Under the pieces are notes generated by a model, which saw nothing but the letters and a program-made list of their open reading frames with translations, was not told the origin of the DNA and searched no databases. DNA of 63,766 nt, the filler included, from Stramenopiles sp. TOSAG23-6 (Eukaryota), in NCBI GenBank assembly GCA_900128565.1. It is 13 parts of 13 records of this genome, joined end to end, with 100 filler letters (N's around TTAATTAATTAA, not from the genome) between each part and the next. Parts side by side here need not be neighbours in the genome. Positions count along the whole stretch, not along the records: positions 19,734 to 24,555 come from LT637047.1; 12 more parts are not named here. One strand, 5' to 3'. The position numbers were made by a program, and so were the translations under genes. Each line of letters opens with the position of its first letter. The stretch's first letter is position 1. Below, piece after piece: positions 4,841-62,186 of this stretch.

Positions 4841-4940
4841 NNNNNNNNNNNNNNNNNNNNNNNNNNNNNNNNNNNNNNNNNNNNTTAATTAATTAANNNN
4901 NNNNNNNNNNNNNNNNNNNNNNNNNNNNNNNNNNNNNNNN
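4841..4940. other. Artificial contig spacer (first of 12)
   Basis: N44-TTAATTAATTAA-N44, also at 9780, 14707, 19634, 24556, 29469, 34378, 39287, 44192, 49095, 53994, 58881. Confidence 0.97.
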
Positions 4941-9779: not shown

Positions 9780-9895
9780 NNNNNNNNNNNNNNNNNNNNN
9801 NNNNNNNNNNNNNNNNNNNNNNNTTAATTAATTAANNNNNNNNNNNNNNNNNNNNNNNNNNNNNNNNNNNNNNNNNNNNGATGAAGAAAACGTAC

Positions 9896-19560: not shown

Positions 19561-19816
19561 ATGTATTGGGAAAAATATATATTTTTTTTTTTACCGAAAA
19601 TAAAAAAAAAATTGTTAGGTACGAAATTTTCTANNNNNNNNNNNNNNNNNNNNNNNNNNNNNNNNNNNNNNNNNNNNTTAATTAATTAANNNNNNNNNNN
19701 NNNNNNNNNNNNNNNNNNNNNNNNNNNNNNNNNTTGAAAAAAAAATCTAAAAAAATTTGTTAGGTACAAAATTTCGTACGAAAAAAAATTCAAATTTTCA
19801 AAAAAATAAGACATAC

Positions 19817-20575
19817 ATCTAGTTCACCTAACAACTCGTCCTCATCAAAACCTTCTCCCATTTGCCGACCTAGAGCTTCATTAATTTCATTTTGCATTTC
19901 CATGCCCTCTTCAAGTTCTGCCTGTAAGTCCTCTACTGCGTCAACATCCATGTATTTTGGAAAAATATTTGAAAAAAAAAACCGTTAGGTACAAAATTTC
20001 GTACGAAAAAAAAATCGAATTTGAAAAAAAATAAAACATCCATATTTGCGCTAATAGCCTGTTGAGCCCTTCTGCTTTCTTTCATCGCACCAACCACAAC
20101 CATATTTGAAGAAGCTTGTTGAAGGTTCATGACCTGGGATTCCAAATTCATAATTTGGTTGTATAGACTCGTTACCTGTTTTTCGTACATTTTTTTCTTT
20201 TTTAGATGTTGTAAAGCGCGCCGTTTATCCTTCTTTTTCATGCAAGCCTTAGCTTTAGCAACTTCACCGTCCATCTTCTTCTCCAAAAATTCAGTTCTAC
20301 ATATATAAGAAAATAACAAAAGATAAAACTATTAGATTTTAAATCCACCAATGAAATAATAAAGAAACATAAATGACACAATCAATAATACTATAAATAA
20401 AAAGTCAAAAAGTAAACCGAGAAGAATGTAGAAGATTCAAAAGAGAATGTATGACTTACCGCTTCTCTAAAGATACTTTAGACTTCTCAATATCAGAAAT
20501 AGCTTTCATTGTACCACCTGCAGTACTTACAGGTGCACGCTGTGGTGCCTGTTTTTTTCCACCCCCATTTCCCAT
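19817..20575 (-). CDS. SNF7: ESCRT-III Snf7/Vps32; exons 20575-20460, 20296-20042, 19949-19817 (3' truncated)
   Basis: KRRALQHLKKKKMYEKQ...NMDVDAVEDLQ...NEINEALG...FDEDELLGELD. Confidence 0.85.
19950..20041 (-). mobile_element. Introner-like intron GG..AT (92 nt)
   Basis: Removal restores MDVDAVEDL; 9-nt direct repeat ATGGATGTT at the junctions. Confidence 0.85.
20297..20459 (-). other. Canonical GT-AG intron (163 nt)
   Basis: CG|GTAAGT...TATGTAG|A; restores KR|TEFLEKK; no family motifs. Confidence 0.85.
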
Positions 20576-20872
20576 TGTAATTAATAGGAGACTATTACTT
20601 CCTTTACTCAAATTTCAACCTCCTGTACCTATCTTCGAAGCCTGTGCGAGCAAATGAAATGAAATCCATGACTGGCTTCGTCTCATCTTGCACCGTGATT
20701 TTTGTTTAGGTACACAAAGTTGGTACGGAATATTACCACTACTAAATTCGACGGATTTCGTGTCAGTCAGTTTTGGAAGTCATCGTGGACCTTGTTCTTC
20801 AAAACCTCCAAAAAAGTTGTAAATCTTAAAAAAACAGTTCGTTTCTCTAGCTGCGATGTCCTATTCGCCAAG

Positions 20873-24089: not shown

Positions 24090-24472
24090 TCAATGTTTAT
24101 TTTTATCAGTAAAATCTCTATCAGGCATAACAATTGGAGCAACTATAGTCCATAAATACAAACCAAAGGTCAACCACACACATACAAGCTGTACCCACAT
24201 ACTTGTTCGGCTGACTCCATATTTTACTTTTTCTACCTCATTCACAGTAGAATTTTCTGGTATTTCAGCCCAATTTGTCAATATCATAGCCATATAAAAA
24301 GATGCCATCAAGAGAGTCATATGGAAAATAAAAGTTTTGGGTGATTCTGGACCGCAGCCAGTTTGCGATTGTTTTTCTTCTCCCTTTTCGTCTTCGTTTT
24401 TTTTTTCTTCTGTGTTTTTGTTTGATTTTGCCTTACCGACTTCTACCATTTCAGTTTCACCCGCAACAATAC
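24090..24472 (-). CDS. SERINC: Serine incorporator (Serinc/TMS1), last exon
   Basis: ASFYMAMILTNW...SMWVQ...LYLWTIVAPIVMPDRDF. Confidence 0.88.
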
Positions 24473-24818
24473 ATACATTGTAAAAAAAATATTTTTTTAG
24501 TTTTTTTTTTTTGTTAGGTACAAAATTTCGTATTAAAAAAAAATTATTTGAAAAANNNNNNNNNNNNNNNNNNNNNNNNNNNNNNNNNNNNNNNNNNNNT
24601 TAATTAATTAANNNNNNNNNNNNNNNNNNNNNNNNNNNNNNNNNNNNNNNNNNNNAACCTAACCTTTTACCCTAACCCTAACAACAAAACTAATGTAGTA
24701 TTTCGTGTTTTTATGGCAACTTCCGGGAACTTACGAATTCAAACAAAATATTATTATTATTATCGAAATTGAAAATTAAGAAACTTCACATCGATATTCT
24801 CACCCAATTACTTCGACT

Positions 24819-33837: not shown

Positions 33838-34077
33838 CTTTTGTATCCAGAATTACTAAAGAAATCGACAAACTGTAAATGTTGTAACTGTTCTAAAAAT
33901 TGAACACAAAAAAAATATTCATATAAATAAACATAACAATCAAAATAACCTTACCACACAAAAATTCCTTTATTTCTTTTATCATATTAAATATCAAAAA
34001 AAAAAAAAAGGTATTGATGATGCGCAATCAAAATTTGCTACAAACTGTAATTAACACTGAAAAACATTGTAACCCTC

Positions 34078-34176
34078 ATGTGTTGTAAAAAAAAAAAAAT
34101 CTAAAAAAAATTGTTAGGTACAAAATTTCGTACGAAAACTAAAAAAAAAAAATTAAAATTCATAATGAACACGAAC
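34078..34176 (-). mobile_element. Introner-like copy in 3' UTR
   Basis: GTTCGTGTTC...CGTACGAAATTTTGTACCTAAC...CAACACAT, 30 nt after stop. Confidence 0.7.
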
Positions 34177-34596: not shown

Positions 34597-35904
34597 TATC
34601 AAATAAAGAAAAACCCTACAACATCTACAACATCTACAACATCTACAACATCTACAACATCTTCAAATGCTTTACTAAACGAACGAGAATGGATCAAAAC
34701 TGCAATCTCTTCAAACGATGCAGTCGGTACAAAAGTAGGTACAAACATTAATTTCATTGAGAATGCAGCACAAAATACAAAGCATACAAACATTAATTTC
34801 ATTGAGAATGCAGCACAAAATAGTGATTATAAAGATGCGTGGATTTCGTGTTCACAAATACGTAAATTGGTTTTAGTTTGGGACAGTTTGCATGTTCGAA
34901 CTCAATGGAGATATAATTTTGAATATGTGTTAAACATATTACCAAAAGATGATTTTACATTTAATGACTTTTTCTCCACAATTCGACTTCTCGCGTCACG
35001 AAATCAAAGTAATTTTGTCCTTCAGAAGGATTTCGTGCAGTTTTTATTTGACACTCATTTGAATAAAAATCATTCTGGTGTTGCAGACGCGGAAACATTT
35101 AAATCCTGTTGGTCAATCATTCAATTGCAAATCAATAGGTACTATGTATGTTTTATTTTTTTTTTTTTTTTAGTAAATATTTTTTTTTTTTTTTTTACGG
35201 AAATTTTTTTTTCGTAGTAAATTTTGTACCTAAACCTAAAAGATTTTTTTTTTCAAATATTTTTCCAAGATACATGAAGAGGCTACTATATCAAAAAACA
35301 AATTTATTGGTACAACATCATCATCATCAATGCTGAAAGATCAATCGACACATATGTTTAATTTCTTTTTTTTTTTTTTTTTTCGGTTAAAAAAAAAAAA
35401 TCGATTTTTTTTTTTGGTTTTTTTTCGTAAAAAAATTTTGTACCTAACAAATTTTCAAAATTTTTTTGAAATATTTTTCCAACATACACTAAAACAAATG
35501 ACTTTGAACGAACGAGAACGAAAATATTTAAAATTTTTAGTGATTGTTTTTTTTCTTTTTTTTGCTTCTTTAATTTTTTCTTGTTTAATAAATACCAGGA
35601 CAGATGCATTCTCCATTTTAAACTCGGATAATAATCTAAATATTGTAAAATTGGATGTACGTTTTCAAAATTAATTTTTTTTTTTTTAATTTTTTTTTTT
35701 TTCATACGAAATTTTGTACCTAACAAAAAAAAAAAAAAATATTTTTCCACAATGAATGACATTTGGACTTGGATAGAGAATGATTTGTACACTGAAATCA
35801 CAGGTGGAGATGATTCAAACATTAATTACACTAACAATGAGGGATTATTTAAACGACTGCAAGAAATGAATGGCTCAGCAGCACAATTTTTTCATCAGGA
35901 ATAT
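34597..35904 (+). CDS. Multi-exon membrane protein fragment, possibly polycystin-like (introns 35146-35275, 35352-35489, 35657-35757)
   Basis: Exons join in frame; TM segment followed by DIWTWIENDLY. Confidence 0.45.
35352..35489 (+). mobile_element. Introner-like intron AT..AC
   Basis: AC|ATATGTTT...CATACAC; in-frame join. Confidence 0.6.
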
Positions 35905-35929: not shown

Positions 35930-35975
<46 letters not shown>

Positions 35976-35983
35976 ATTTTTCC

Positions 35984-36017
<34 letters not shown>

Positions 36018-36031
36018 GTTCCACAATATAT

Positions 36032-36598
36032 GCTGAAGATCCTCTAAGAGGATTTTTACCATCAATTGGTCGTCTTTTACAATATAATGAACCAAATGCA
36101 GATGATTTGGATATATCACCGGGTGAAATCGTTCGCGTTGATAGTGGTGTTACTGTAGGAAGTAATATTTCAATGTTTTATGACCCAATGATTAGTAAGT
36201 TAGTTACATATTCACCAGAAGGGAGAGAAGCCGCTACGGATTTAATGGTAAAAGCGTTAGATTCATACGTAATTCAAGGTTTGAATCATAACGGTCATTT
36301 CTGTCGAGCTCTTTGTGAACATCCTCGATTTCGTGCAGGTAACTTATCAACTGAATTTATAAGCGAAGAATACACTGATGGATTTGAACCAGATGGGTTT
36401 TCATTGCCTAGAGACGATCAAAATATTGTATATGCTATCGCTGCACTAATTCATTCCCGTGATGAAATAAATCGTATTCCTGATTTAGATAAGAATAGAC
36501 ATCAAAAGAATCATCATATTGATTTATCACTTGGTATTGGTAGTAATCTTTCGGAAACTCATGTCAAAACAAAGTGTATTCTTCCTCCTGAACTAGAT
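36032..36598 (+). CDS. PCCA: Biotin carboxylase C-terminal exon (propionyl-CoA carboxylase alpha-like)
   Basis: AEDPLRGFLPSIGRL...VRVDSGV...ISMFYDPMISKLVT. Confidence 0.8.
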
Positions 36599-36693
36599 GT
36601 ATGTTTTATTTTTTTTTTAACAAAAAAATCGAATTTTTTTTTTATAAAAATTTTGTACCTAACGTTTTTTTCAAATATTTTTCCAAAATACAT

Positions 36694-39239
36694 GCGGCTA
36701 AATAATACCGGCAGAGTATTTTTACCAAGTGAGTTGCTCGATTTAGTTGAGCTTGTTGTAACAGCAGAGAGAGCTAATAAGTGGTTCAAAGAATCCGGAA
36801 AAAATGCCGAGGCTGCAAATTCAAGTGAAAACTCATATGTATCATCTCCAGAAAATAAATTCGCTTTAGCTTTGCCCGTTTCAGAGCAAACGCCGCTCAA
36901 ATTAGTACTGCATGTATTAGAAATTCTTGATTGTATACAACATGGCAAGGCTCTTTCGGAATCTCTTATGAATACTATATGGTGGAACTCGTCTGGACAA
37001 TTACGAATTGTTGAGACTTTTCATCCTCAATGTATGCGCATCATGGGTACAAGTAGTGGAGGATCCAATCTACCAACTCTAATTATGGGTAGAAAGGGTT
37101 ATCAAACGTCCATGGATATAGATGATAAAGTCCAGAAAGTTTCATTTTCTGGCGCAAACACTTTAACAATTAAATTTGATAAGCGTTGTGAACTTCTTCC
37201 TGGTTCATTTTTTGTTATTGAATTTGACACATCCAAAAAAGGCGAACTTTCAAAACACATAAAATTAGAATTTCGAGGAGGCAAAACTAATGAGTTTTTT
37301 ACTCCTACAACAAAGTACCAAAATACAATTGATTTGACATCTTGGGATATTCCTGCATCTGAATTTTCGTTTTATTTTGGTTATTTTGACAAAGAAGAAT
37401 ATAAAAAAGATTCAGTGGAAGAGACTAAAGAATATAAAAAAGATTCAGTGGAAGAGACTAAAGAATATAAAAAAGATGGAACAACTGTAGCGAATGAATT
37501 GTCCAAGAAAAGCAAATTTTGTATCAGCGAAAGCTCCAAAAAATCGAAAAAATCGGTAGATTATTGGGGCGTTGCATTTGTTGTGATACCTGACACAAGA
37601 ATTCCTTACCATGATATCGCCACGCATATTTACAAAGCTACCCCTGGTGATTCTCATGGTACTGAATTGGAAAATGCTCGGTGTAAGGTTAAGGAATTAG
37701 AAATGAAGAAGATATCCACCGTTGTGAAATTAGCTAGAGAAAGTCATCAAATATCAAAAGCAGTTGAAAGTTTTAGTACGTGGACTCCAAAATTAGATGC
37801 ATTATTGGTTGATTGGATTAATTCATGGATTTCAAAGCACGGTAGTAAGTCCTGGATGGAGTTACTACCAGATTTTGTTAGATTAACAAAGAATGAATGT
37901 GGTTATTACTATCAGCTATTATCAACGGTGCCGTTAGAGTCGCTATATATTCGCGTTGCTCTCTTCCGACAATTTAACCTTTATTTGTCCGAAATACTTC
38001 CACTAATAAATCTTGGTAGTATAGATCTCGCTAGTGTCGGTGCTCGTTTGCGTGCTTCAAGCCACTGTATATTCCGCGACCTTAAATTGCCAATACTCAA
38101 ACGAGCATTAGAAGTCACTCGCGGACCTGAAAGAAACAGCGAACCGATCTATATGTACGTTTTCATTATGGATTTCAGATTTTTTTTTTTTTTTTTTTTT
38201 GGTATGAAATTTAGTACCTAACAAATTTTAGTTTTTTTTTTGAAATATTGTTTCACAATACAGAACTCTCGATAATTTTGAAGTTATATTGTTTAGAGAT
38301 AAAGGAATAATTGATGCATTGACTAGTAAGAATATTTTCACTCAGGCGTTTGACCAATTGCATAAATTACCACCAAAAATTCTCCGGTCTAAATTTACTC
38401 ATGGTAGNNNNNNNNNNNNNNNNNNNNNNNNNNNNNNNNNNNNNNNNNNNNNNNNNNNNNNNNNNNNNNNNNNNNNNNNNNNNNNNNNNNNNNNNNNNNN
38501 NNNNNNNNNNNNNNNNNNNNNNNNNNNNNNNNNNNNNNNNNNNNNNNNNNNNNNNNNNNNNNNNNNNTGTTTTATTTTTTTTTTTTTTCCGGTAAAAAAA
38601 AAATTGAATTTATTTTTTTCAAAAAATTTTGTACCTAACAAATTAAAATTTTTTTTTTTGAAATATTTTTACAAAATACATCGGTCGCCTCGTGCTATTG
38701 AATATTTTGAATTTCTTGGTAAATTAATGGGGCTATCACTGCGAGCTACACTTTGTCTTCCATTTTCATTCCCTTCTCTTGTATGGAAGCAACTTGTTGG
38801 AGCCGAAGTGGATTCATCTGATCTTCATGCAATGGATTATCTGACAATGCAACAAATCGATATCATTCGTGGTTGTGATGTTGACGAAGGAATCACAGAT
38901 GAAGAATCATTTAAGAATGAATATGGAAATTTAAAATGGTCTTATATTTCAGCTGACGGAGAAGAACGACGATTTGAACGAATAGAAGATATAAAAAAAT
39001 ATAGTGATCAATGGAATGCTGAAACCGATAAAAGTCAAAATAAATCAAAGTATAATTTCACAGAAATATCATCCAAATCACCAGTTACTTTCAAGGAAAA
39101 AGATATTTATTGCGATGCTCTAATATATGCACGTTTACATGAGTTTGACACACAGATAGCAGCAATATCTCGGGGCATGCAAACCGTTGTACCCAAAAGA
39201 TCTACTCGATTATTTACTTGGCAGGAGTTAGAAATGTTA
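36694..39239 (+). CDS. HECT E3 ubiquitin ligase fragment (several exons, internal gap)
   Basis: FTQAFDQLH, YFEFLGKLMGLSLR, PSLVWKQLVG, RLHEFDTQIAAI, LFTWQELEML. Confidence 0.85.
38155..38263 (+). mobile_element. Introner-like intron GT..AG (109 nt)
   Basis: Ends CACAATACAG at the position where other copies have CAT; gives YITLDNF. Confidence 0.8.
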
Positions 39240-39987
39240 GTGTGTTTTATTTTTTTTTTTTTTTTTTACAAAAAAATCGAATTTTTNNNNNNNNNNNNNN
39301 NNNNNNNNNNNNNNNNNNNNNNNNNNNNNNTTAATTAATTAANNNNNNNNNNNNNNNNNNNNNNNNNNNNNNNNNNNNNNNNNNNNCCAATTGTACCAAC
39401 CTGCCCAAGAATAATCCTATATTGTGAAGGGAAAAAAAAAATTGAAAATAAATAATCTGGATAAAATTGTCAACCCAAAAAAAAATGTAAAAAAGAAATG
39501 TAAAAAAAACAAAANAAAAAAAAAAAAATGTAAAAAAAAAATGTAAAAAAATCAAATGTAAAAAAAAAATGTAAAAAAATTGTACAATTGTTTTGTTAGG
39601 TACAAAATTTCGTATGAAAAAAAAAATGAAAAAAACGTACATCCTTCAAGGGAGTCTTTTTTTGTAGTACATTTTTTGCATTTTTTGCATTTTTTACATT
39701 GTTATTACAAAAATTTGCAATTTTTCGTTTTGCCAACATTCGTAATAAAATAATGAAATGTTGAAAAATATTTTAANCTTTGAAAGTACAAGTAAGTTTT
39801 CAAGAAAAACAAAAACACAAATTTAAAAAAAAAAAAAAATTAAATTGTTAGGTACACCTTTTCGTATGAAAAAAAAAAAATTCAATTTAAAAATTTAAAA
39901 AAAAAAAATTAAATTTTAAATTGTTAGGTACAACTTTTCGTATGNAAAAAAAAAANAAANTTTNAAATGAATGATGAAAAAACTCAC

Positions 39988-40400
39988 ATTGTATCTAAAG
40001 AAAAAATTGACTCCAAATTTGTCATTCGTTCCAATTCTTTATGACTTAATTTCTTGAAATATTGTGTTTGAAGCAGTTTTGTCGGTGTAGTATTATCTTG
40101 TACCATTTTTTCATACTTGAACTCATTATTTTCATCTATATCGTTTGGTATTTTTGGTATTTTTGATACAACATCGTTAGGGTTAGGGTTTTCTGTAGGA
40201 CAATTATCTACTTGATCTAATGCTTTAATAGCATGTATTGTGAAAAATATTTTTTTTTTTTGATTTTTTTTGTTAGGTACAAAATTTCGTACGAAAAAAA
40301 ATTAAATTCAAAATTGAAAAAAAATAAAACGTATATCTTCCCTAGACACTTTAGCATTTGCCATTACGGCTTCGATTTCTTTGTTACTATGCTTAGTTTC
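39988..40400 (-). CDS. Exons with UBA/NAC-alpha-like motif (40400-40335, 40232-39988)
   Basis: KEIEAVMANAKVSRED|AIKALD across AT..AT intron 40233-40334. Confidence 0.6.
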
Positions 40401-40511
40401 ATGCATTTTGGAAAAATATTTCAAAAAAAAAAAAATCTAAATTTTTTTGTTTGGTACAAAATTTCATACGAAACCAAAAAAAAAAAAAAATGATAAAAAT
40501 TGAAAACGTAC

Positions 40512-40774
40512 ATGTAATTCATACTTGCATAATATAGCTGATGGGCGTAATCTATATCGCCGATCATCATTATTATCATTATTATCATTATTATTTGTAT
40601 TCTTTGTTAATTTATAATGAGAATGATTTTTGTACGATCGGAGACATAATAAAACACTTTCGGAGATATTAAAACATTTTATCTCCCTATCACAAAGAAA
40701 CTTTTGTATTTTGTTTTCTTTTTGTATTGAACAATTATTATTATTATTTGTACTATTATTATTATTATTTGTAC

Positions 40775-40812
<38 letters not shown>

Positions 40813-41870
40813 GCAGTAGTAGTAGTAGTAGTATCATTATGATCAAAAAGTGAATGATCAGATGACGTTTTCATCACGGAACACATCCAATGAAAAAAAA
40901 ATGGAGAATTTCTAAAAGTGATCAATTCTAACATGTCTAGTTTATCTTCATATTCACTTATTTTTGTACTAAAACTTGAATTTTGTTTAGGAATATTTCT
41001 AACGTTTTGATCATTATTACTATTATTATTATTATCAGAAATATCATCATCAGAAATATCATTATCAGAAATATCATTATCAACATCAACAACATTATCA
41101 ACATCAACAACATTATCATAAACAACATCATTATCAACATCAACAACAACATTATCATCAACAACATCATTATCAACATCAACAACATCACTATCAACAT
41201 CAACATCATCATCATCAGAAATATCATCATCAACAACAATATCAAAATTATCAATCTGGGTATTATTTAAAAGCATATTTAAATGTTGTATTAAAACACC
41301 AACCAAATGCCTACTGATTTTGCCTGACAAAATACCAGCATGTAATTGAGAAATAGAAGGGAAATTGTGACGCCCTACACAATGCGAACCACATACGTCA
41401 TGATAACTCACAGCGTAACCATTGCGTATCGGACCTTTTAATATATTTTGTACAAAAGAATATGCTTTGCGTATTTGAAATATTGGAAAATGCAAACGCT
41501 CATTAGTTTGGATAGTTCGTTTTTTCTGTACGTCTTTTCGAAGTTTCGTCACAAATGAACCAAAGTTATCTAATTCGTTTTTTGTACACTCAAATTCCTT
41601 CAATGTGTATGATCTATTATCAGACAATGGAGAAACAACTGTTGCATCGGTATACTGTAAACAACCTTTTAACCGTTTTATTTCTATTGCAATTGTTTCC
41701 AATTTTTCTTTTTTACTCAAAAGGCGTTGACGTTTTAATTCTATGGATTTAGATAATGATTCAATAGCATTACGTCTACGAGTAATCATAGGTATATACT
41801 GTGAATCAATAAGAGATTTGGTTGACTTGTCTCTCTGTTTCGAGTTATTGCTCAAGTCTTTTTTAGACAT
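40512..41870 (-). CDS. Low-complexity protein, first exon ending in the start of a zf-C3H1-like motif
   Basis: Asp/Asn tracts; ends ILCKYELH at family intron 40401-40511. Confidence 0.55.
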
Positions 41871-42557
41871 GACACAAAAAGTATAGAAATAATAATGACT
41901 ATTAAAATATGCTTGTATTCCTATTTATAGCTCACGAAAAAATATACTCAATCTAACAACATATTGGGAGTACAATGATGCAAAATATATTTAACATATA
42001 CATTTCCCCCAATAACGACGTATAATACATAAGTTATACTTCTATTTTTTGTTTCTGGTTTGTTGAATAATCACACGCACTCACTTCCCTCACTTCACTT
42101 CGACTTCTTTGTACGTTTTTTTAACAGAACACGAAATCGAAATCCCAAATTCCCAATGAACAGAAAAAAAAGCATTTTTAAATTATGAATACTACAACAT
42201 TAATTATGTAACAACAAATCTAAATCTCAGAAAGCATAGAAATATATATTGAACACTACTCGCCTTACTACAGAACATGCTTGAAAGCAGAATAATATGT
42301 ATTTGACGTTTAAAAAAAGTAGCCGACACAGTTTTCGAATTTAAATTTGATTTTCGAAATTGTTTTGGAGAAATTTCAAAGAAGTTTGCATAAAAACCCG
42401 TAGTTTGGTTAGTCAATCAATTTGTTGCACACTCATAAATATGCAAATTCCTAGGATAATGCTTTTGTTAAGAAGGCATTCGGTAGAGTATTCATAGACC
42501 ATGTAAGAAAAAAGGACAAACTATAATCTATAATTAAGTCTATAATATAAGTAGTAG

Positions 42558-42592
<35 letters not shown>

Positions 42593-42691
42593 TTTTTTTT
42601 TTTTTTGAAATTTTTTTTTTTTGTTAGGTACAAATTTTCCTAAAAAAAAAAAAAAAAAATATTTTCAAAAAAAATAATGAAAAAAACGTAC

Positions 42692-44157
42692 ACACTTATA
42701 TCCAATAATTGAGTATGAATTCTACACGAAAAACCATGTTTTTCTTTTTCTTCATGTTTTGACTTGTTTTGACAAAAACCAGAATCTTCTTGTACATGGT
42801 TAGGGTTAGGGTTTTTATTCTGTATTATATTTTGACTTTTGTATGAAATTACATTTTTTTTTTCTCTACCAAATTTCGTACCGAATGAATTTCGAATTTG
42901 TTGATTAGGGTTAGGGTTATCTTTTGATTCGGAAGAACTCGAAACGTCTTCAGATTCTTCTGCGGTAGCAAACTCTCCATCAGATGATGAAGTAGATGAT
43001 ACACTATTTATGTTTGGCGGAAAATTGGATGATGACAAAATATTTTCATTTTTTTCAAAATTTTCAAAATTTTTTACATTTTTTGAATTTTCAAAATTTT
43101 CAAAATTATCTATTTTTTTTATTTTTGGCCAGAGAAATCGTTTTATATCAAACCAGGCATCTGCATTCCATTCAAAATGTATTTGTTATACGTAGTCAAA
43201 AAATATTTATACAGTTTCATTTTTTTTGGTTAGGTACGGAAAAAATATACAATTCAATTAAGAGTGGGAACACCTCTTACGTACAATATTTCGTACGAAA
43301 ACCAAAAAAAAAAAAATACATTTGAAATTAAAATTAAAATTAAAATTAAAAATAAAATTAAAAATGAATGTTAAAAACATACTCGCATCTATGTCTATAT
43401 TAGGAATATCATTTGATTCNGAATATGTAATTTTTATACATTTCTGTTTTGTTTTATCTACAGTATTTATAAATGTTTCTTGAGAAAAATCATTATTTGA
43501 AGAGTGTATTGAATGTATTGAATTTTGAGAAAAATCATTATTTGAAGAATGTATTGAATTTGATGAATTTTGAGAAAAATCATTATTTGAAGAATGTATT
43601 GAATTTGTTGAATGTTTTTTACATTGTATTAAATACTTGAAATCATTCATAGCTAAATTATTTTTTAATGAAATATTTGAAACCTCAAGCAATATATTCA
43701 ATTTTTTTGATGGATCTTTTCTACATTCAATTATTGTTTTTTTCAAATTCAAAGATATATTTACTTTTATATTCGATGTAGGGTTAGGGTTAGGGTGAAT
43801 ATCCGATAAAAATAAGATATCGATTGATTCTACACTTCCTCGTATTTTTGTTCCTATATGTAATGAAATACTATTTTTTGAATGTTTTAAATTTTTTGAA
43901 TTTTTTGAATTTTTTAAATTTTTTGAATCAAATTCAATATTTTGTCTTCTTGTTTGATTTGATGTTTTGATCCAATTTTGAAGAATTTGATACTCATTTT
44001 CATATAATTTCATACAAATCGTAGAAACACGAAATCCTACTTCAATGTCTGAAAGTGTACGCATTTTTTTTTGTATTGTTGATTTCACATTTAATTGTAA
44101 TGAAAAAGGCTGAACAAATGATGGTATACTACTATCTCTCTTTTCCTCAAATCCTAT
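42692..44157 (-). CDS. Multi-exon fragment, possibly VPS13-like
   Basis: FVQPFSLQLNV, beta-rich alternation, IHFEWN; bounded by family introns. Confidence 0.4.
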
Positions 44158-44546
44158 ATGTATTTTGAGAAAATATTTCAAAAAAAAAATTNNNNNNNNN
44201 NNNNNNNNNNNNNNNNNNNNNNNNNNNNNNNNNNNTTAATTAATTAANNNNNNNNNNNNNNNNNNNNNNNNNNNNNNNNNNNNNNNNNNNNCACTCAAAG
44301 TCGAGCGAGAAGATTGTTATTGTACTGGCTATTAATTTTGAGGAACCCAACCCTAGCTATTATTGCAACCCGCGCGAGGCGGCTTTAAGTACAAAATTTT
44401 GTATGAAAACCGGACTCCACGTCCATCATTGATCATTGATCTACCTTTTCATTTTGTTCGACGAACAAACTAAGAATCTCAAATCAAATCTCTCAAATCT
44501 GAATAACTGGGCTATTACTACCTTTTGGAGGTGTTAGAAGTTAATC

Positions 44547-46499
44547 ATGGGAGGGGGCATGCATTTTTTGAATAAGAAGTCCTGGCATGTCTCAAATTTG
44601 AGCAATGTCGAGGAAGTATGGAAAGCTGAACAAAAGAAAGCTGCTGAAGCGAAGAAACTTAAAGAATTGCAGCGTGAGTTAGACGAGGAGCGGCGAGAGG
44701 AGATGCTTCAAAAGGAAGCTGAAGACGCTGGTATTGTTAGAAAACCTAAACAAGTTCGTTTGAATTGGATGTATCAGGGTAAGGGTGTTGCAGGAAATAG
44801 CGAAGAATCTTCAAAAGGGGCAGATGAAGCCGCTCAAGAAGCCAAGCGTCGTCGTGATGAGTATTTGCTAGGAAAAGAATTTGACCCAACAAAGAAGGAA
44901 GTTAGTCATGTCAAACAGTTGGAAGAAAATACTAGATCAACTCCGGGGTCGTTGTGGTTAAGCAAGGCATCAACAAAGACAGAACTGTTTCATAAGATGC
45001 ATGATGATCCGCTCATAAAGATTCAAGCTGCAGAGTCCCGTTTAAGTGGAGTGAGTAATGAACAGTATAAAGCTGCAGTCTCTAGAAAGCGCAGTTCGAC
45101 TTCAATTGATGCAAAAACAGTGAAAAGAGCACGGAAAAGGCTGAAAAAGTTAGCAAAAAAAGAAAAGAAGGCAAAGAAAAAGTTACGTAAGAAGTTGAAA
45201 AAGAGATCAAAAAAGAAGAAAAAAGTGTCCAGTTCAGATGAAGACTCTGATGAGAATGGTAAGAGTTCTCTTGAAGATAATACGCATAAATCTCCAAAGT
45301 CTCTGGAGAAAAAGCAGCCATCTGATGATGGTGGTCATAAACAAAAAGAATTAGCTTCATCAAAAGATATCACAATAGACACGGCACCTGGTACGGTAAA
45401 TTCTGTGGCTAATTCTACTGATGATAAAATAGAAACCACAATAACCTCAATAACCACAAAAAACAATGAAAGCTCAGTATCTCAAAAAGTTCAACCCAAA
45501 GTCAATCTACATAAAATTCCCGAGGAAACTTTCATTATGACCACAGAAAAGGCCAAAAAAATATTATCTGGAGAAATTGCACCTCCAGACAATTGGACCC
45601 CAGCCGAAGTATTAAAAGCAAATATGGCTGCTAAAATATTAGAGGGTAAACTGAAGGCGCCTGCTGGATGGACGCCTTCTTTAGTACTTCGTGCTGCTCA
45701 AGGTAAGTCTGTGCCAGAATTTTCATCAGATCCTTCTAGAAGTAATGAACGTCCAACTACAAATCAATATTATAGGGGCAATAATGCTTATTCTGAATAT
45801 GAAAAAAATAGGTGGAGACGTAAACAACGTCGTAGAAGTTATTCTCGAGGACGTGGGCGTGATCGAATTCGCAGTAGATCAAGGTCACGTAGACGTAGTC
45901 GTAGTCGAAGACATAACAGATCAAGGTCATACAGTCATGATAGTAGATCAAGGTCGCGTGGACGTAGTCGAAGACATAAAAGATCAAGGTCGCGTGGACG
46001 TAGTCGAAGACATAAAAGATCAAGGTCGTACAGTAGTGATAGTAGATCAAGGTCACGTAAACGAAAAGGTAGTCGAAGACATAAAAGATCAAGGTCGTAC
46101 AGTCGTGGTAGTAGATCAAGGTCGCGCAGTCGCTCTCATTCCCTCAGTGTGAAAGAAAAAGTTTTAAGGCAAAAGTTAGAGGCTTCAAAGTCATCAAAAG
46201 AAGAACAGACAAAGGCTGAGAAACTTTCACAAATGATTGCGGATGCCCAAAAACATCAAATGGGTCGTAAACAACGTATTGATGACGCAAATCAACGTTC
46301 TATGGAAGCTCTGGGTAAAGAAACTGATGAAGCGACAAAAAAATCAAGTGTTCCTCTATTTCTCGAAAGTGCAAAACGAAAAATATATTCAACCAATAAA
46401 TTGAATGAAACTGAAAAATTGGATAAAAGTAAATTACTGAGACAGAGATCTCATTACAATCAAAGGTCACTAACGAGTGAAAGTTTTATGCAACGTTGA
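44547..46499 (+). CDS. CWC25: Pre-mRNA splicing factor CWC25 with RS domain
   Basis: FLNKKSWH...NVEEVWKAEQ, RLNWMY, DEYLLGK, DDPLIKI, RS repeats. Confidence 0.88.
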   Translation: MGGGMHFLNKKSWHVSNLSNVEEVWKAEQKKAAEAKKLKELQRELDEERREEMLQKEAEDAGIVRKPKQVRLNWMYQGKGVAGNSEESSKGADEAAQEAKRRRDEYLLGKEFDPTKKEVSHVKQLEENTRSTPGSLWLSKASTKTELFHKMHDDPLIKIQAAESRLSGVSNEQYKAAVSRKRSSTSIDAKTVKRARKRLKKLAKKEKKAKKKLRKKLKKRSKKKKKVSSSDEDSDENGKSSLEDNTHKSPKSLEKKQPSDDGGHKQKELASSKDITIDTAPGTVNSVANSTDDKIETTITSITTKNNESSVSQKVQPKVNLHKIPEETFIMTTEKAKKILSGEIAPPDNWTPAEVLKANMAAKILEGKLKAPAGWTPSLVLRAAQGKSVPEFSSDPSRSNERPTTNQYYRGNNAYSEYEKNRWRRKQRRRSYSRGRGRDRIRSRSRSRRRSRSRRHNRSRSYSHDSRSRSRGRSRRHKRSRSRGRSRRHKRSRSYSSDSRSRSRKRKGSRRHKRSRSYSRGSRSRSRSRSHSLSVKEKVLRQKLEASKSSKEEQTKAEKLSQMIADAQKHQMGRKQRIDDANQRSMEALGKETDEATKKSSVPLFLESAKRKIYSTNKLNETEKLDKSKLLRQRSHYNQRSLTSESFMQR

Positions 46500-49194: not shown

Positions 49195-50452
49195 TAGTGA
49201 TTTAGATCATAGTGATGATATTTTTTCAAATACAAATAGTGATTTAGATAATAATGATGATATTATTTCAAATACAAATAGTGATTTAGATCATAATGAT
49301 GATATTATTTCAAATAAGAGTTGTTATGAAGAGGAAATTGCAGATCAAACTTGTCACAAAAAACATAAAAAACAATCTGAAGTCAATGAAATTGTTCCTG
49401 AACAAATGTCAACGTCACCAAAACCTCCCCACACACCATGTATGTTTTATTTTTTTTCAAATTCTAATTTTTTGTTTCGTACGAAATTTGATACCTAACA
49501 AAAAACTTTTTTTTTTTTGAAATTCTAATTTTTTTTCGTACGAAATTTTGTACCTAACAAAAAACTTTTTTTTTTTTTAAATATTTTTCCGAAATACATG
49601 CCCTGCTTATGCTGAAATGCAAATACCTGCTCTCCAGTATGCAATGGCAAATTATGGAATGAGAAAAGCTTCAAAGAAAGTAATGGTACAAAAACTAACT
49701 GAGTTTTGGCACTTTTTGAGAAAGGATAAACTCATTCAAAAGACTAAAGAAAAAAAAAAAAGAAAGAAAAAGAAGAAGACTAATTTGATTTGTCGACAGA
49801 ATTGTAATGTAGTTGCTCTTCCTGTACCTGATGAAAATGGTCATATAGATGCGGTACTTGCACCTGTACGTTTTCAGTATGAATTTCAAATTTTTTTTTC
49901 GTACGAAATTTCGTACCTAACAAATTTCGAATTTAATTTTTTTTACAATACATGTACTTGATGACAATTTGCTTCCCAATAGTGCCAATTGTATGGTACC
50001 AAATTTTGTACCTAAAGCGAACGAAATGTTCTTTGTGCAACATTCTCCTTCGGACAACCCTAACCCTAGTCTTTCTCTTGGAATTCAATCTGTATCGAAT
50101 GGTAAAAAATATAGTAAAAATCACGAAACATTGATAAATCTTATTCGAAACAATAACAGTCCAAAGATGGCTACATTACATGTATGTTTTATTTTTTTTC
50201 AATTTCAAATTTATTTATTTTTTTTTATAAAAATTTTGTACCTAACGATTTTTTTTTTTTTTTTTGAAATATTTTTCCAAAATACATGAAAAAATGATTC
50301 TTCTGGACGCTGTAAATGTCAATGATGTGTATGATGCTTTTCAGAGAGCGGCAAAACGAAGCAATAAAGTAGAATGTGGAGATATCACTAAAAATCTTAT
50401 TGTAGAATTTCTTGAGGCGCAAAACATTACCATGGAAAACAATGTTAAATAA
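49195..50452 (+). CDS. SLX4: SLX4-like nuclease scaffold, C-terminal exons (introns 49440-49599, 49866-49953, 50182-50287)
   Basis: TP|CPAYAEMQIPALQYAMANYGMR (SAP-like) and LH|EKMILL...LIVEFLEAQNIT (SLX1-binding-like). Confidence 0.7.
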
Positions 50453-50682: not shown

Positions 50683-53600
50683 ATGTCATACAAGTTCGAA
50701 AGACTTTCAGAAAAAACGCATCATTTCTTTCGTGGTAGTGCTGTTCTATCAGCTCTAAATGGATATGTTGACTTCCCGGGACAGGAATCAGACTCAGAAA
50801 TGTCTCGGGTTGTTAGCTCCACAACAGAAACTATACTGGTAGCTATGGCGGCAGCTCCTGGTCATATCGTTTGCTGTTTTAAGTTGAAAGACATAGGTAC
50901 TTTATTGGTATCTCTTGATGCTGTCCTTCCACATGAATTGATGGATGATGACTTATTGAAAGGTCTTTTGGCGTTAGTTTTAAATACTACAAAAACGTCG
51001 CCTCTTTTATCTTTTCCATCATCTGAAATTCGACCCAAGATTTTATTATCTCTCCATCGGAAGGAAATCGTTACTATAAAGTATATTCCAGGTAATATCC
51101 TTCGATTAATAGCAGTGTATAGAAATGGGGAAATGTACGTTTGGGAATGGGACGGAAATCATTCGAAATGGGTGTATTTAAATTGCGTTATTTTAGGCAA
51201 TATCGATAGTGTAATTGAAGTAATAGAATGTGTTTTCTGTGAGTGTAATAATACAATTGTTTGGCAAGAGAAACATTTAAATATGACATGTCGCACATGT
51301 ATGCGTACAATTCACTTTAGCTGCGAATCAATGGTAATGAATGATTCAAAAAGTGATTCAAAAAGAAATGTCAAACCAAAACTATGCCAAAACAATATTT
51401 TGAAAAGAACTTTGATTTACATTGGTCAACTATCTGTGATTTCAACAACAAAAGTAGACCAAATTTTTGTTTCAAAAATAGGCATTTGGACATTTGATTC
51501 ATCAGCTATACATAAAACAAACTCAACAAAGTCTTCGACAGCATTTTCTGATTCAATTGAGTCAACCTCATCAACTCAAATAAAATTATATTTATGGAAA
51601 TTTTCATCACAGGTGCAGGTACCTTTTGTGTATAACTCACCAAATGATCAAAATAATCAATTGCGTCGTATTGCTGGTACAGTTCATACTACATCTGGAA
51701 TTATTTTTATTCTGTGTTGTGCAACAGGCGTATGTTTTCAAAATTGAATTTTTATCTACATTTTTTTTATACGAAATTCTGTACCTAACGGTTTTTTTTT
51801 TTTAGTAAAAAAAAAAAAAAAAAAATTAAAAATTTCACAATACATATTGTATACATAAGAAATTCCAATACTAGCCGTAACTCTACAAGAACCCTAACCC
51901 TAAAACCATTATGTACATTATATCCATATGATATAAATAGTGAAAATATAAATGATTCTATTTCAATACAAGCAAAAAGAACATTTTTATATGTTCTCAC
52001 AAAGCGTAAAGTTATTGTACATGTATGTTTTATTTTTTTGAATTTCGAATTTATTTTTTTTTTTTTTTGGTAAAAAAATTAAAATTTTGTACCTAACGAT
52101 TTTTTTTACTAAAAACACAAAATTAAAAATTTCACATTTTTTTTGTACTACAAAAGGATTTTCTTTTAGTATGAAAATTCCGTACATAACAATTTTTTTT
52201 TACTGAAAACAAATTCACAGCATATGATTTAATTAGTGGGTTACAAATGGCAGAGATTGTGATAAACGCAAACTACTCAGGTACAAAATTTGGTACAAAT
52301 TATGATAGTAAGAATATTTTTGACAGTGACATTTTATATAAAAAAAATTTTTGGACTGAAGCAACACCTGGGGTAGGGTTAGGGTTGTGGGATTATTCGG
52401 GGATGTGGTCCTTGAAGCATCCTAGTGTAGCAAATGAAGCCGCTATGTATGTTTTCATCTCTTTTGTTTTTGTTTTTACCTACGAATATTGTATACAAAA
52501 AAAAATTTCATGTAAATTTTTTTTTTTTACTATGAAAATTGTATACCTAAAACAAATTTCAAATATTTGAAATATTTTTTTATTTGATTTTTTTTTTTAT
52601 AAAAATTTTGTACCTAACAAATTTTGACATTTTTTTTTTTTTGACAACACAGACTCACAGCATCAGTAGAACAATTTGGTTTAGACTCGATATTTCATTC
52701 AAAGACTTTATTATCACGGAATTGGATGTATGTTTCATTTTTTTTCAAATTCGATTTTTTTTTCGTACGAAATTTTGTACCTAACGATTTGTTTTTGAAA
52801 TATTTTTCCAAAATACATGTCCGGAGAAAATTCAAAATTTATTTCTTCTAAAATGATTCCGTGCAATTTTTTTACAAAATATTTCTCAAGTAATGACACG
52901 TGTACGTTTTTCATTTTAACCTTTACATTTCATTTTTTTTTTTTTTGGTTTTAGTACGAAATTTACAATGAAAAAAAAAAAAATTATACAAAAATATATA
53001 TATATTTCACAATATATTTGTTCAGCGAAATTTTATTACACGAATGTTTAAACAATTTCTAAAATATCGCAATTTTTTTGATGATAATAGTGTTGAATGT
53101 TTACTAACATCTATGAATATTATATTACGTCATTTGCAATCTCCTGCAATGTTGCTTGCACTTCTACCAACGAGCCACGTACGTTTTAACCATTAATTTC
53201 AAAAAACAATTTCATACGAAATTTTGTACCTAAGAAAAAAACATTTTTTTTAAAGTAGTTATGTTTTCATCATTTATTTCAAATGTGTAAAGTAACATAA
53301 AAACAATCAAATTTGGTATATTTTGTACAATATATATTCATAAAAGTTTTGTATCAGAAATTTTAGATTCTTTCACATCTGATATCAAGGAGAGAGTTGA
53401 CACTCAGCAAATTCGAAATTCGTTAGGTACAAATTTTGGTACAAAAAAAAAAAAAAAAAAAATGAAGGAATTGTTTTTACTCAAATCATTGACTCCACTT
53501 GCATTACAATTAAAACCTCGACTACACGAAATGCTCAATATTTCAAAAAAATTATCGATTCATCGAAAATCTCATATAGTCGTAAAGAAGAGAGTTGATT

Positions 53601-58724: not shown

Positions 58725-58980
58725 TCTTGTTGCTCTCTCTCTTTTTAGTGATACCGGTACCTGAATCCCAAAACAAAAGTATTTTCTTTTAATTTCAATG
58801 TTTTTTTCATACGGTACTGTACTGCGCTGAACACTGTATACTTTTTACATTTATTTTGGTTTTGGTTTTTCGTGTGTGGANNNNNNNNNNNNNNNNNNNN
58901 NNNNNNNNNNNNNNNNNNNNNNNNTTAATTAATTAANNNNNNNNNNNNNNNNNNNNNNNNNNNNNNNNNNNNNNNNNNNN

Positions 58981-60368: not shown

Positions 60369-60406
<38 letters not shown>

Positions 60407-62151: not shown

Positions 62152-62186
<35 letters not shown>

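What the first reader, a model, noticed from the sequence alone, without database searches (positions are those of the whole stretch)
19950..20041. GG-AT intron in Snf7 with a 9-nt junction repeat
Seen: the donor position reads GGATGTTTT and ATGGATGTT is repeated at both junctions. The conserved Snf7 segment MDVDAVEDL requires removal of exactly 92 nt. No sliding register gives GT-AG; GT-AT is possible at +4 and AT-AC at -2. This is the strongest single-locus case for non-canonical splicing.
Basis: partly seen in the sequence, partly recalled or inferred. Interest (0 to 1): 0.75.

Follow-up and report, generated by a model that had tools for sequence, protein, structure and literature searches.

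The report
Repeat-family intron lacking AG in Snf7
The 92-base interruption of this Snf7 gene is one copy of a short repeated intron-like element that fills the genes of an uncultured marine eukaryote and ends in AT instead of the near-universal AG, so its removal must break the usual splicing rule.

Summary
On the minus strand a 92-nt insert (20041..19950) splits a Snf7/CHMP4 gene. It starts GGATGTTTT, ends ACAT, contains no AG, and ATGGATGTT stands at both junctions. Ten equivalent registers exist and none is GT-AG. Pfam, PDB and a 58%-identical homologue all read straight across NMDV|DAVEDL, so exactly 92 nt must go.

It is not an isolated oddity. It is 90-93% identical to inserts in unrelated genes and belongs to a family of about 36 sense-oriented, 86-130-nt elements in this window. 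Family members have a GTAYGT start, a GTACCTAAC box, a T-rich tract and an ACAT end. AT is the 3' end in 24 of 27 copies, and removing exactly that span restores the frame in most copies. GG here is a +2 variant of the family's GT. Three of the nine repeated bases (ATG) are family-wide.

Best reading: an introner-like, transposon-derived spliceosomal intron with a non-AG 3' end. No RNA covers the Snf7 junction. One RNA contig leaves another copy exactly at its AT|G boundary. The cutting register and the spliceosome type remain open.

The parts
20460..20575 (-). Snf7 exon 1 (coding part, ATG at 20575..20573)
   Evidence: Reading. It aligns to the N-terminus of homologue P0001. RNA contig X6 record 21 fits 20460-20602 and leaves exactly at 20460.
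20297..20459 (-). Snf7 intron 1, an ordinary GTAAGT...TAG intron that is not a family member
   Evidence: exon 1 and exon 2 join without a gap against P0001. This shows that AG-ended introns coexist with the family in the same gene.
20042..20296 (-). Snf7 exon 2
   Evidence: Pfam PF03357 positions 18-102, E 2e-17. PDB Shrub, CHMP4B and Snf7 matches.
19950..20041 (-). The 92-nt insert of the finding: a family copy starting GGATGT and ending ACAT, with no AG inside
   Evidence: nhmmer E 1e-20 over the full model. It is 93, 92 and 90% identical to the copies at 52728, 27340 and 31459.
20035..20043 (-). Left copy of the 9-nt junction repeat ATGGATGTT
19943..19951 (-). Right copy of the 9-nt junction repeat ATGGATGTT
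19984..20005 (-). Conserved family core CGTACGAAATTTTGTACCTAAC. Its last bases (GTACCTAAC) are the putative branch site, about 35 nt before the 3' end.
   Evidence: 36 matches at <=3 mismatches against 0 in 100 shuffles. The branch-site role is inferred from resemblance to the yeast UACUAAC box (recalled).
19817..19949 (-). Snf7 exon 3
   Evidence: Pfam PF03357 positions 101-147, E 6e-10. CHMP4B chain 3um3_B residues 3-49.
19734..19816 (-). Start of Snf7 intron 3, a second family copy (GTATGTCTT...core...) cut off by the contig linker at 19634-19733
   Evidence: nhmmer E 4e-11, model positions 2-81.
24473..24555 (-). 3' part of another family copy (ends ...ACAATGTAT) in a Serinc-like gene. Its AT|G boundary is where an RNA contig departs.
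   Evidence: In one search, X7 record 31 (1134 letters) fits 24402-24472 with 0 differences and then runs on unlike the intron. DNA contig X2 record 7 continues to 24510. The Serinc-like name is my recollection from the translation.
52728..52818 (+). Closest sister copy (93% identical), GTATGT...ACAT, in an unrelated gene
35352..35489 (+). Family copy whose ends read ATATGT...ATACAC (AT-AC in the same register). The 138-nt length fits the frame.
   Evidence: manual frame reading.

Best explanation
The 92-nt insert is a young copy of an introner-like element. This is a short (86-130 nt), T-rich, non-coding repeat that has spread into many protein-coding genes of this organism, always in the sense orientation.

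The element carries its own splicing signals. It has a yeast-like 5' site (GTAYGT), a conserved GTACCTAAC box about 35 nt from the 3' end that probably serves as the branch site, and a T-rich tract. It ends in ACAT rather than YAG. The pre-mRNA is most likely cut by a U2-like spliceosome just before the G of GTAYGT and just after ACAT (GT...AT). This leaves the AT|G exon junction that most copies share.

In the Snf7 copy, position +2 has changed from T to G. The ends therefore read GG-AT, or AT-AC or GT-AT in equivalent registers. The same 92 nt still have to be removed to give the conserved NMDVDAVEDL.

Shown: the sequence facts, the family, its sense orientation, the frame-restoring length, and the homology across the Snf7 junction. 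Inferred: removal at the RNA level, the spliceosome as the agent, the exact register, and origin by transposition with a short (about 3 nt, ATG) target duplication.
For: Family:
- The core motif has 36 hits against 0 in 100 shuffles.
- nhmmer gives 40 hits at E<=1e-5. 37 remain outside the duplicated contig, making about 36 introns in about 62 kb.
- The Snf7 copy is 93, 92 and 90% identical to copies in unrelated genes.

Ends:
- 5' ends: GT in 23 of 27, AT in 2, GG in 1, GA in 1.
- Positions +3 A, +5 G and +6 T hold in 27 of 27.
- 3' ends: AT in 24 of 27, AC in 2, AG in 1.
- The next exon base is G in 18 of 27.

Frame:
- Among 21 complete copies, removing exactly GT..AT leaves a sense reading frame open for >=50 codons on both sides in 14, and for >=26 codons in 20.
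- The sense frame beats the antisense frame in 20 of 21.
- Removing L+1 or L+2 instead is worse in 14 of the 20 copies with both ends.
- Four copies (31459, 49440, 49866, 51730) have no in-frame AG within 60 nt downstream.

Snf7 junction: Pfam positions are contiguous, PDB relatives agree, and the alignment to P0001 is gap-free.

RNA hints:
- polyA metatranscriptome contig X7 record 31 matches 24402-24472 perfectly and leaves exactly after ...TGTAT| of a family copy, while a DNA contig runs on into it.
- X6 record 21 leaves Snf7 exon 1 exactly at its GT-AG donor.

Register 0 gives only end pairs already known from other systems (GT-AT, AT-AT, AT-AC, GT-AG, G[GA]-AT). The -2 register would need TT-AC, CT-AC, GC-AC, AT-GC and AT-GA. 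GT-AT and AT-AT are documented productive pairs (PMC1557818 and 10.1101/2020.10.12.336362, passages read).
Against: - No RNA covers the exon 2/exon 3 junction of Snf7, so removal of this copy is inferred from protein conservation only.
- A 3' end in U is not a known efficient U2-type acceptor. GG at the donor would normally block splicing.
- Two of 21 copies need a removed length of L-2 or L+1, not L. For 3681-3579 an AT two bases upstream in an (AT)n run fits. Copy 36599-36693 is unexplained, and the ORF 35933-38218 reads straight through it.
- Family sequence is abundant in two of the three RNA libraries laid. This could mean poor removal or DNA carry-over.
- The RNA hint at 24472 is one contig whose other side is not on the stretch, so it does not count as a bridging record.
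- The genome is a fragmented single-cell-like assembly, and a single-base error at +2 cannot be excluded.
Confidence: 0.6

Rival explanations
1. The family is spliced by a minor (U12-type) spliceosome, which is known to tolerate non-AG 3' ends. The Snf7 copy would be a U12-like intron with a +2 variant.
For: GT-AT, AT-AT, AT-AC and GT-AG, the end pairs seen in this family, are the pairs reported as productive or recurrent for U12-type introns (PMC1557818 passages). [quoted passage not shown] The 5' end GTATGTTTT shares 7 of 9 positions with RTATCCTTT (my comparison).
Against: G at +5 is invariant (27 of 27), which is a U2-type hallmark where U12-type introns have C. The conserved CTAAC box lies about 31-36 nt from the 3' end, outside the 10-26 nt that I recall for U12 branch sites. 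A T-rich tract is present, whereas U12 introns lack one (PMC11282704 passage). No U11, U12, U4atac or U6atac gene was found in the window (0 Rfam hits), but 64 kb is far too little to judge.
Confidence: 0.12
2. The family is spliced, but this copy is not what it seems. Either the G at +2 is an amplification or assembly error and the real copy is an ordinary GT...AT member, or this allele is splicing-defective and the gene is decaying.
For: The assembly is fragmentary, with many single N and contigs of about 4.8 kb. GG is seen in only 1 of 27 5' ends. No independent DNA contig unique to this insert was recovered.
Against: All three exons are intact, conserved and in frame. A second copy has GA at the same place (27340), and three have AT, with open frames on both sides. 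Non-GT starts therefore recur.
Confidence: 0.12
3. Removal is at the RNA level but not spliceosomal. The terminal inverted repeat (AUGUAU...AUACAU) pairs the two ends and another activity cuts and joins them, as proposed for Amoebophrya introner elements and euglenid non-conventional introns.
For: The ends form a 6-7 bp closing stem in 6 of 10 predicted folds. Short direct repeats overlap the junctions, as in Amoebophrya (PMC7789003 passages: direct repeats of 3-5 nt plus inverted repeats of 8-20 nt). The consensus is weakly palindromic (21 of 500 shuffles reach its score).
Against: Fold energies are no better than shuffles (z from -2.1 to +1.15, and +1.15 for the Snf7 copy, whose T>G change breaks the stem). 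The strict sense orientation and the invariant GTAYGT and CTAAC positions are what a spliceosome needs, not a hairpin.
Confidence: 0.08
4. Canonical splicing after all. The donor is the GT at +4 (GTTTTA) and the acceptor is the third downstream AG (+19). This removes 107 nt and deletes VDAVE.
For: It is the only in-frame GT-AG pair available (with my frame arithmetic).
Against: It creates a 5-residue gap against P0001 (159 against 172 bits). It removes residues matched by Pfam positions 101 onward and by CHMP4B MDIDKVDEL. GTTTTA lacks the family's invariant +3 A and +5 G. Sister copies have no such in-frame AG.
Confidence: 0.04
5. The elements are cut out of the DNA, like the internal eliminated sequences (IES) of ciliates, with one copy of the ATG repeat retained. 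The assembly would then represent an unprocessed genome.
For: Short direct repeats bound the elements and one copy is retained. The termini are TG...CA in the -1 register.
Against: 20 of 21 copies are sense-oriented with splice-like signals. Environmental DNA contigs contain intron sequence (X2 records 2 and 7). No transposase or excisase was seen among 18 long ORFs.
Confidence: 0.03

Closest known systems
Introner elements of Micromonas pusilla and Aureococcus anophagefferens (transposon-derived introns; known to me through passages of the review PMC11282704 and of PMC7789003; primary paper recalled, not read)
   Same: They are high-copy, short, near-identical intronic repeats inserted in coding genes. 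Part of the splice signal is carried by the element and part is made at a short duplicated target. Short inverted ends and direct repeats are present.
   Different: Those families have canonical GT-AG ends. Here the 3' end is AT in 24 of 27 copies, and RNA proof is lacking.
Amoebophrya introner elements / non-canonical introns (PMC7789003, passages read)
   Same: They are non-canonical ends in a marine protist, with 3-5 nt direct repeats overlapping the exon/intron borders plus terminal inverted repeats, and they spread like transposable elements.
   Different: Amoebophrya shows no conserved terminal dinucleotides, has 8-20 nt hairpin-forming repeats, and U1 was not detected. Here the 5' site and the branch-like box are strongly conserved, the hairpin is weak, and one end pair dominates.
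Physarum polycephalum expanded U12-type introns with transposon-like ends (10.1101/2020.10.12.336362, passages read)
   Same: There was mass gain of introns whose ends look like inverted repeats flanked by a 2-nt direct repeat. GT-AT, AT-AT and similar pairs occur.
   Different: Physarum introns have RTATCYTT 5' sites and a TTTGA branch motif 10-12 nt from the end. Here +5 is G, and the conserved box is about 35 nt from the end.
MITE-derived non-canonical introns of fritillarid tunicates (seen only as search-listing abstracts: PMC13326754, 10.1101/2025.08.15.670264; details recalled)
   Same: A genome in which most introns escape GT/AG yet are removed by an adapted major spliceosome.
   Different: The lineage and the end pairs are different. 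No snRNA or U2AF data are available for this organism.
Isolated U2-type GT-AT introns (for example DGCR2, conserved between human and mouse; PMC1557818 passage)
   Same: An optimal U2-type 5' site and pyrimidine tract with an AT 3' end.
   Different: Those are single rare introns. Here it is the rule for a whole repeat family.

Membership tests
Snf7/CHMP4 (ESCRT-III) for the host gene | Match to the Pfam Snf7 profile above the curated cut-off, contiguous across the exons | tested here: met
   exon 2 scores 63.8 bits (cut-off 27.3, positions 18-102) and exon 3 scores 39.4 bits (positions 101-147). Searches give PDB relatives. One search gives 56% identity over 168 residues to P0001.
Introner / introner-like element | Many near-identical copies of one sequence lying in introns of unrelated genes | tested here: met
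   Host genes include Snf7, ankyrin-repeat, R3H/SH3, HSF, biotin carboxylase and Serinc-like genes.
Introner / introner-like element | Sense orientation, and removal of the element restores the reading frame | tested here: met
   the sense frame beats the antisense frame in 20 of 21 copies, and 14 of 21 are open for >=50 codons on both sides. Two copies need L-2 or L+1.
Introner / introner-like element | Shown to be spliced out of mRNA | tested here: inconclusive
   no RNA cover of the Snf7 junction. One RNA contig departs at the predicted AT|G boundary of copy 24473-24555, but its other side is not on the stretch.
Introner / introner-like element | Transposon hallmarks: terminal inverted repeats and a target-site duplication | tested here: inconclusive
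   The inverted ends ATGTAT/ATACAT are only 6-7 nt long. The junction repeats are 0-5 nt, mostly ATG (9 nt in Snf7). No empty site or autonomous element was found.
Canonical U2-type GT-AG intron | GT at the 5' end and AG at the 3' end | tested here: not met
   GG...AT, and no register gives GT-AG. In the family, AG is the 3' end in 1 of 27 copies.
Canonical U2-type GT-AG intron | Extended 5' site, branch box and pyrimidine tract | tested here: met
   GTAYGT with +3, +5 and +6 invariant. The GTACCTAAC box is conserved. The sense strand is 51% T. The functional role of these features is inferred.
U12-type (minor) intron | 5' site RTATCCTT | tested here: not met
   GTA[TC]GTTTT, with G at +5 in 27 of 27 copies.
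U12-type (minor) intron | Branch motif TCCTTAAC-like, 10-26 nt from the 3' end | tested here: not met
   The CTAAC box lies about 31-36 nt upstream. The 10-26 nt range is recalled.
U12-type (minor) intron | Minor-spliceosome snRNAs present in the genome | not testable with these tools
   No whole genome is held. Rfam on the 64-kb window gave 0 hits.
Ciliate-type internal eliminated sequence | Precise excision from somatic DNA | not tested
   Only one read-laying run was available. The DNA contigs seen contain intron sequence.

The most novel reading that the evidence does not exclude
An uncultured marine eukaryote has had its genes colonised by thousands of copies of a roughly 90-nt transposon-like introner. 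Its major spliceosome routinely removes these at GU...AU boundaries, which amounts to a systematic, lineage-wide non-AG 3' splice site coexisting with ordinary AG introns in the same gene. The pairing between the first and last intron bases is relaxed or altered: G..U is the norm, an A..C variant occurs at 35352-35489, and GG and GA starts are tolerated.
Probability: 0.4. Interest if true: 0.8.

Novelty: new variant of a known kind. Interest (0 to 1): 0.62.

Why it matters
Transposon-born introns (introners) are the leading explanation for bursts of intron gain. Published surveys start from annotated, mostly GT-AG introns and discard or re-check families with unfamiliar ends (PMC12130899, methods passage). 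A family whose normal 3' end is AT would be invisible to standard gene finders. Gene models for this organism, and for metagenome bins of it, would then be truncated wherever a copy sits, roughly once per 1.6 kb here.

If RNA data confirm the GT...AT boundary, the system offers a natural series of end variants (GT-AT, GG-AT, GA-AT, AT-AT, AT-AC, GT-AG) on one otherwise constant intron. That series could be used to ask how the second catalytic step recognises the 3' end.

Tried and rejected
- RNA test of the junction. One read-laying run was available. The junction is therefore neither confirmed nor refuted.
- Depth. The bins holding family copies are thousands-fold deeper than unique sequence in both DNA and RNA runs. 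The tool warns that this is no copy number, so I draw no number from it.
- Protein look-ups for transcript-derived products. The Snf7 exon 2 search among longer proteins found only P0001 at 58% identity. The search among proteins of similar length found none. The Serinc-like exon after the 24472 boundary found none.
- More family copies elsewhere. The 19-nt core gave 3 matches in metagenome contigs, all unrelated sequence by eye. It gave 0 in viral contigs and 1 unrelated bacterial hit in genome contigs.
- No whole genome is held.
- Rfam on the window gave 0 hits.
- The protein atlas on the neighbouring mitochondrial carrier gave only 'Eukaryota', so the lineage is undetermined.
- Earlier findings of the scan: nothing.
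- Literature. Searches found no description of this family or of its motifs. The library lacks most subscription papers, and supplements were not opened.
- Hairpin-driven excision: the folds are not better than shuffles.
- A 9-nt target duplication as a family rule: rejected, since the other copies share 0-5 nt.
- Pfam continuity at other copies: no other junction lies inside a recognised domain.

Full report
**1. What is in the sequence**

The gene lies on the minus strand.
- Exon 1 runs from the ATG at 20575 to 20460.
- Intron 1 (20459..20297) is an ordinary GTAAGT...TAG intron.
- Exon 2 is 20296..20042.
- The insert of the finding is 20041..19950 (92 nt).
- Exon 3 is 19949..19817.
- A further intron starts GTATGT at 19816 and runs into an N/TTAATTAATTAA/N linker.

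The insert begins GGATGTTTT and ends AAATACAT. ATGGATGTT stands at 20043..20035 and at 19951..19943. Ten registers (-2 to +7) give the same mRNA. These include AT-AC (-2), GG-AT (0) and GT-AT (+4). None is GT-AG, and the insert holds no AG.

**2. Exactly 92 nt must go**

- Exon 2 matches Pfam Snf7 at positions 18-102 (E 2e-17), and exon 3 matches positions 101-147 (E 6e-10).
- Fly Shrub aligns up to ...NMDV, and human CHMP4B starts MDIDKVDEL.
- The only database relative found, P0001 (224 aa, 58% identity to exon 2), reads ...KVDIDEVEDLQDD....
- Joined by coordinates in a script, the 92-nt-spliced product aligns to P0001 without a gap over the junction (172 bits).
- The only in-frame GT-AG alternative is GT at +4 to the AG ending at +19 (107 nt). 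It makes a five-residue gap and scores 159 bits.
- The unspliced reading runs into a stop.

**3. It is a repeat family**

- The central 22-mer of the insert occurs 36 times in the window at <=3 mismatches, against 0 in 100 shuffles.
- A profile built from 14 complete copies finds 40 hits at E<=1e-5. Three lie in a contig that is present twice. The remaining 37 hits amount to about 36 introns in about 62 kb.
- Copies are 86-130 nt long and 51% T on the sense strand. Mean pairwise identity is 71%.
- The Snf7 copy is 93, 92 and 90% identical to the copies at 52728, 27340 and 31459, which sit in unrelated genes.
- Host genes include ankyrin-repeat, R3H/SH3, HSF, biotin-carboxylase and Serinc-like genes. 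The Serinc name is recalled from the look of the translation.
- The window is 13 contigs of about 4.8 kb, sorted by length and joined by linkers. At least 6 of the 12 linkers abut a family copy, as expected if a high-copy repeat breaks the assembly.

**4. Anatomy of the family**

The usual layout is: exon ...AT | GTAYGTTTT, then a T-rich arm, then (CGTACGAAATTTT)GTACCTAAC, then a T-rich tract, then ...C[AC]AAATACAT | G... exon.
- 5' ends (n=27): GT 23, AT 2, GG 1 (Snf7), GA 1. Positions +3 A, +5 G and +6 T hold in 27 of 27.
- 3' ends (n=27): AT 24, AC 2, AG 1. A further copy ends ACAG at 52652.
- The next exon base is G in 18 of 27. The two bases before the intron are AT in 21 of 26.
- Most copies are therefore flanked by a 3-nt ATG repeat. 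Junction repeats are 0-5 nt long in the other copies and 9 nt only in Snf7.
- The ends are a short inverted repeat (ATGTAT/ATACAT). The consensus as a whole is only weakly palindromic, with 21 of 500 shuffles reaching its score.

**5. Are they removed, and where?**

Frame and orientation:
- All 21 complete unique copies lie in the sense orientation of an open frame. The sense frame beats the antisense frame in 20 of 21.
- Removing exactly GT..AT (length L) leaves a frame open for >=50 codons on both sides in 14 of 21, and for >=26 codons in 20 of 21.
- Among the 20 copies with both ends, L is better than L+1 or L+2 in 14 and ties in 2. It is not best in 4 copies: 3683, 3847, 36597 and 52726.
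- By hand, 52726 and 3847 do fit L; short neighbouring exons confuse the automatic test.
- Copy 3681-3579 needs L-2. That is an AT two bases upstream in an (AT)n run.
- Copy 36599-36693 needs L-2 or L+1 and stays unexplained. The ORF 35933-38218 reads straight through it.
- Four copies have no in-frame AG within 60 nt downstream, so a hidden AG acceptor cannot rescue the family.

RNA evidence:
- The single read-laying run gave no cover of the Snf7 exon 2/3 junction.
- A 1134-letter polyA metatranscriptome contig (X7 record 31) matches 24402-24472 without a difference. It leaves the window exactly at the first exon base after ...ACAATGTAT| of the family copy at 24473-24555. A DNA contig (X2 record 7) runs on into that intron.
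- Because the match does not extend over the two intron bases AT, the -1 and -2 registers are unlikely for that copy.
- This is one contig, and its other side is not on the stretch. It is a hint, not proof.
- X6 record 21 leaves Snf7 exon 1 exactly at the GT-AG donor of intron 1. X5 record 10 runs unspliced into that intron.

**6. Which register and which machinery?**

The mRNA cannot tell the registers apart. Comparison across copies favours register 0.
- Register 0 gives GT-AT in most copies, plus AT-AT (3847, 40334), AT-AC (35352-35489), GT-AG (38155), GG-AT (Snf7) and GA-AT (27340).
- The -2 register would need TT-AC, CT-AC, GC-AC, AT-GC and AT-GA.

GTAYGT with an invariant +5 G, the CTAAC box about 31-36 nt upstream, and the T-rich tract are U2-type features. 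The resemblance to the yeast GUAUGU and UACUAAC boxes is recalled, not tested.

The tolerated 3' ends match what is documented for U12-type introns. [quoted passage not shown] However, the 5' site and the branch distance do not fit U12.

A hairpin-guided, non-spliceosomal route, as discussed for Amoebophrya (PMC7789003 passages), is weakly supported. The terminal stem appears in 6 of 10 predicted folds, but the energies are no better than shuffles (z from -2.1 to +1.15). The Snf7 T>G change breaks that stem.

**7. The Snf7 copy itself**

Against its closest sisters it differs at the donor by T>G at +2. This turns ATG|TATGTT into ATG|GATGTT and so extends the family's ATG repeat to nine bases, because exon 3 happens to begin GATGTT (codons for D and V).

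By my own arithmetic, the chance is about 3e-4 per copy, or about 1% for this window. It is expected somewhere in a genome with thousands of copies. I therefore treat the 9-mer as a coincidence plus one substitution, not as a 9-nt target duplication.

A consequence is that three non-GT-AG readings (AT-AC, GG-AT, GT-AT at +4) are chemically distinct yet give the same mRNA.

**8. Comparison and novelty**

The thing works like an introner and meets the tests of copy number, orientation and frame restoration. It fails the GT-AG test. Proof of splicing and the transposon hallmarks (empty site, autonomous partner) are missing.

The closest precedents are:
- canonical introners of Micromonas and Aureococcus;
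- non-canonical introner elements of Amoebophrya;
- the transposon-like U12-type introns of Physarum;
- fritillarid tunicates.

Four literature searches found no description of this family or of its motifs. The library is incomplete, and supplements were not read. I rate it a new variant of a known kind.

**9. Verdict**

The locus is a good witness for non-AG intron removal, but the phenomenon is family-wide, and the GG is a secondary change.
- Confidence that it is a spliceosomal, introner-like intron removed at a non-AG boundary: 0.6.

Noticed in passing
window 1-63766; linkers at 4841-4940, 9780-9879... 58881-58980: The window is not one stretch of genome. It is 13 contigs of 4840 down to 4786 nt, sorted by length and joined by N44-TTAATTAATTAA-N44 linkers, so neighbouring pieces are not genomic neighbours. 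GC is 32%.
   Followed up: yes
39387-44191 and 58981-63766: The same contig appears twice. Family hits recur at a constant offset of 19594, and ungapped identity is 88% over 4786 nt, with the shortfall probably due to small indels and N. This could be redundant assembly or two alleles.
   Followed up: partly
e.g. 6303, 15248, 19388, 22161, 40178, 43779, 50058, 50524, 56322, 56679: Interstitial telomere-like repeats: TAGGGTTAGGG occurs 22 times (17 outside the duplicated contig) against 0.01 expected from shuffles. Several lie inside open reading frames, where they read NPNP or similar, for example in the SNF2-like ORF at 19388.
   Followed up: partly
36599-36693 (+), inside ORF 35933-38218: This family copy in a biotin-carboxylase gene is 95 nt long, which does not restore the frame. 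L-2 (GT...AC) or L+1 would. The frame also stays open straight through the copy. It may be retained, spliced differently, or affected by an indel error.
   Followed up: partly
35352-35489 (+): This family copy has ends reading ATATGT...ATACAC, that is AT-AC in the register where the family has GT-AT. It carries a 4-nt ACAC junction repeat, and its 138-nt length fits the frame. It is a single case of first and last base changing together. Two other A-starting copies keep T at the end.
   Followed up: partly
55808-55928 (+); also 40401-40511 (-), 34076-34169 (-), 19734-19816 (-): A sub-group carries a T-run followed by AG (TTTTTTTAGA) between the CTAAC box and the ACAT end. In 55808-55928 that AG lies 30 nt before the end and is in frame, so a canonical GT-AG form adding 10 residues is possible there. 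In 55529-55646 the internal AG lies 31 nt before the end and is out of frame (my count output).
   Followed up: no
49440-49599 (+): A composite intron of 160 nt holds two family cores in tandem (49478 and 49537). This is either a nested or a dimeric insertion, and the frame is restored by removing the whole.
   Followed up: no
44538-46496 (+): An ORF with CIR_N and CWC25 (pre-mRNA splicing factor) domains is present, so at least this part of an ordinary spliceosome is encoded.
   Followed up: no
19734-20055 and 24403-24555: In the environmental runs laid, words of the family are thousands-fold deeper than unique sequence, in DNA (X2) and in two RNA libraries (X5, X7). They are much less so in the third RNA library (X6). 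The tool warns that such depths are not copy numbers.
   Followed up: no
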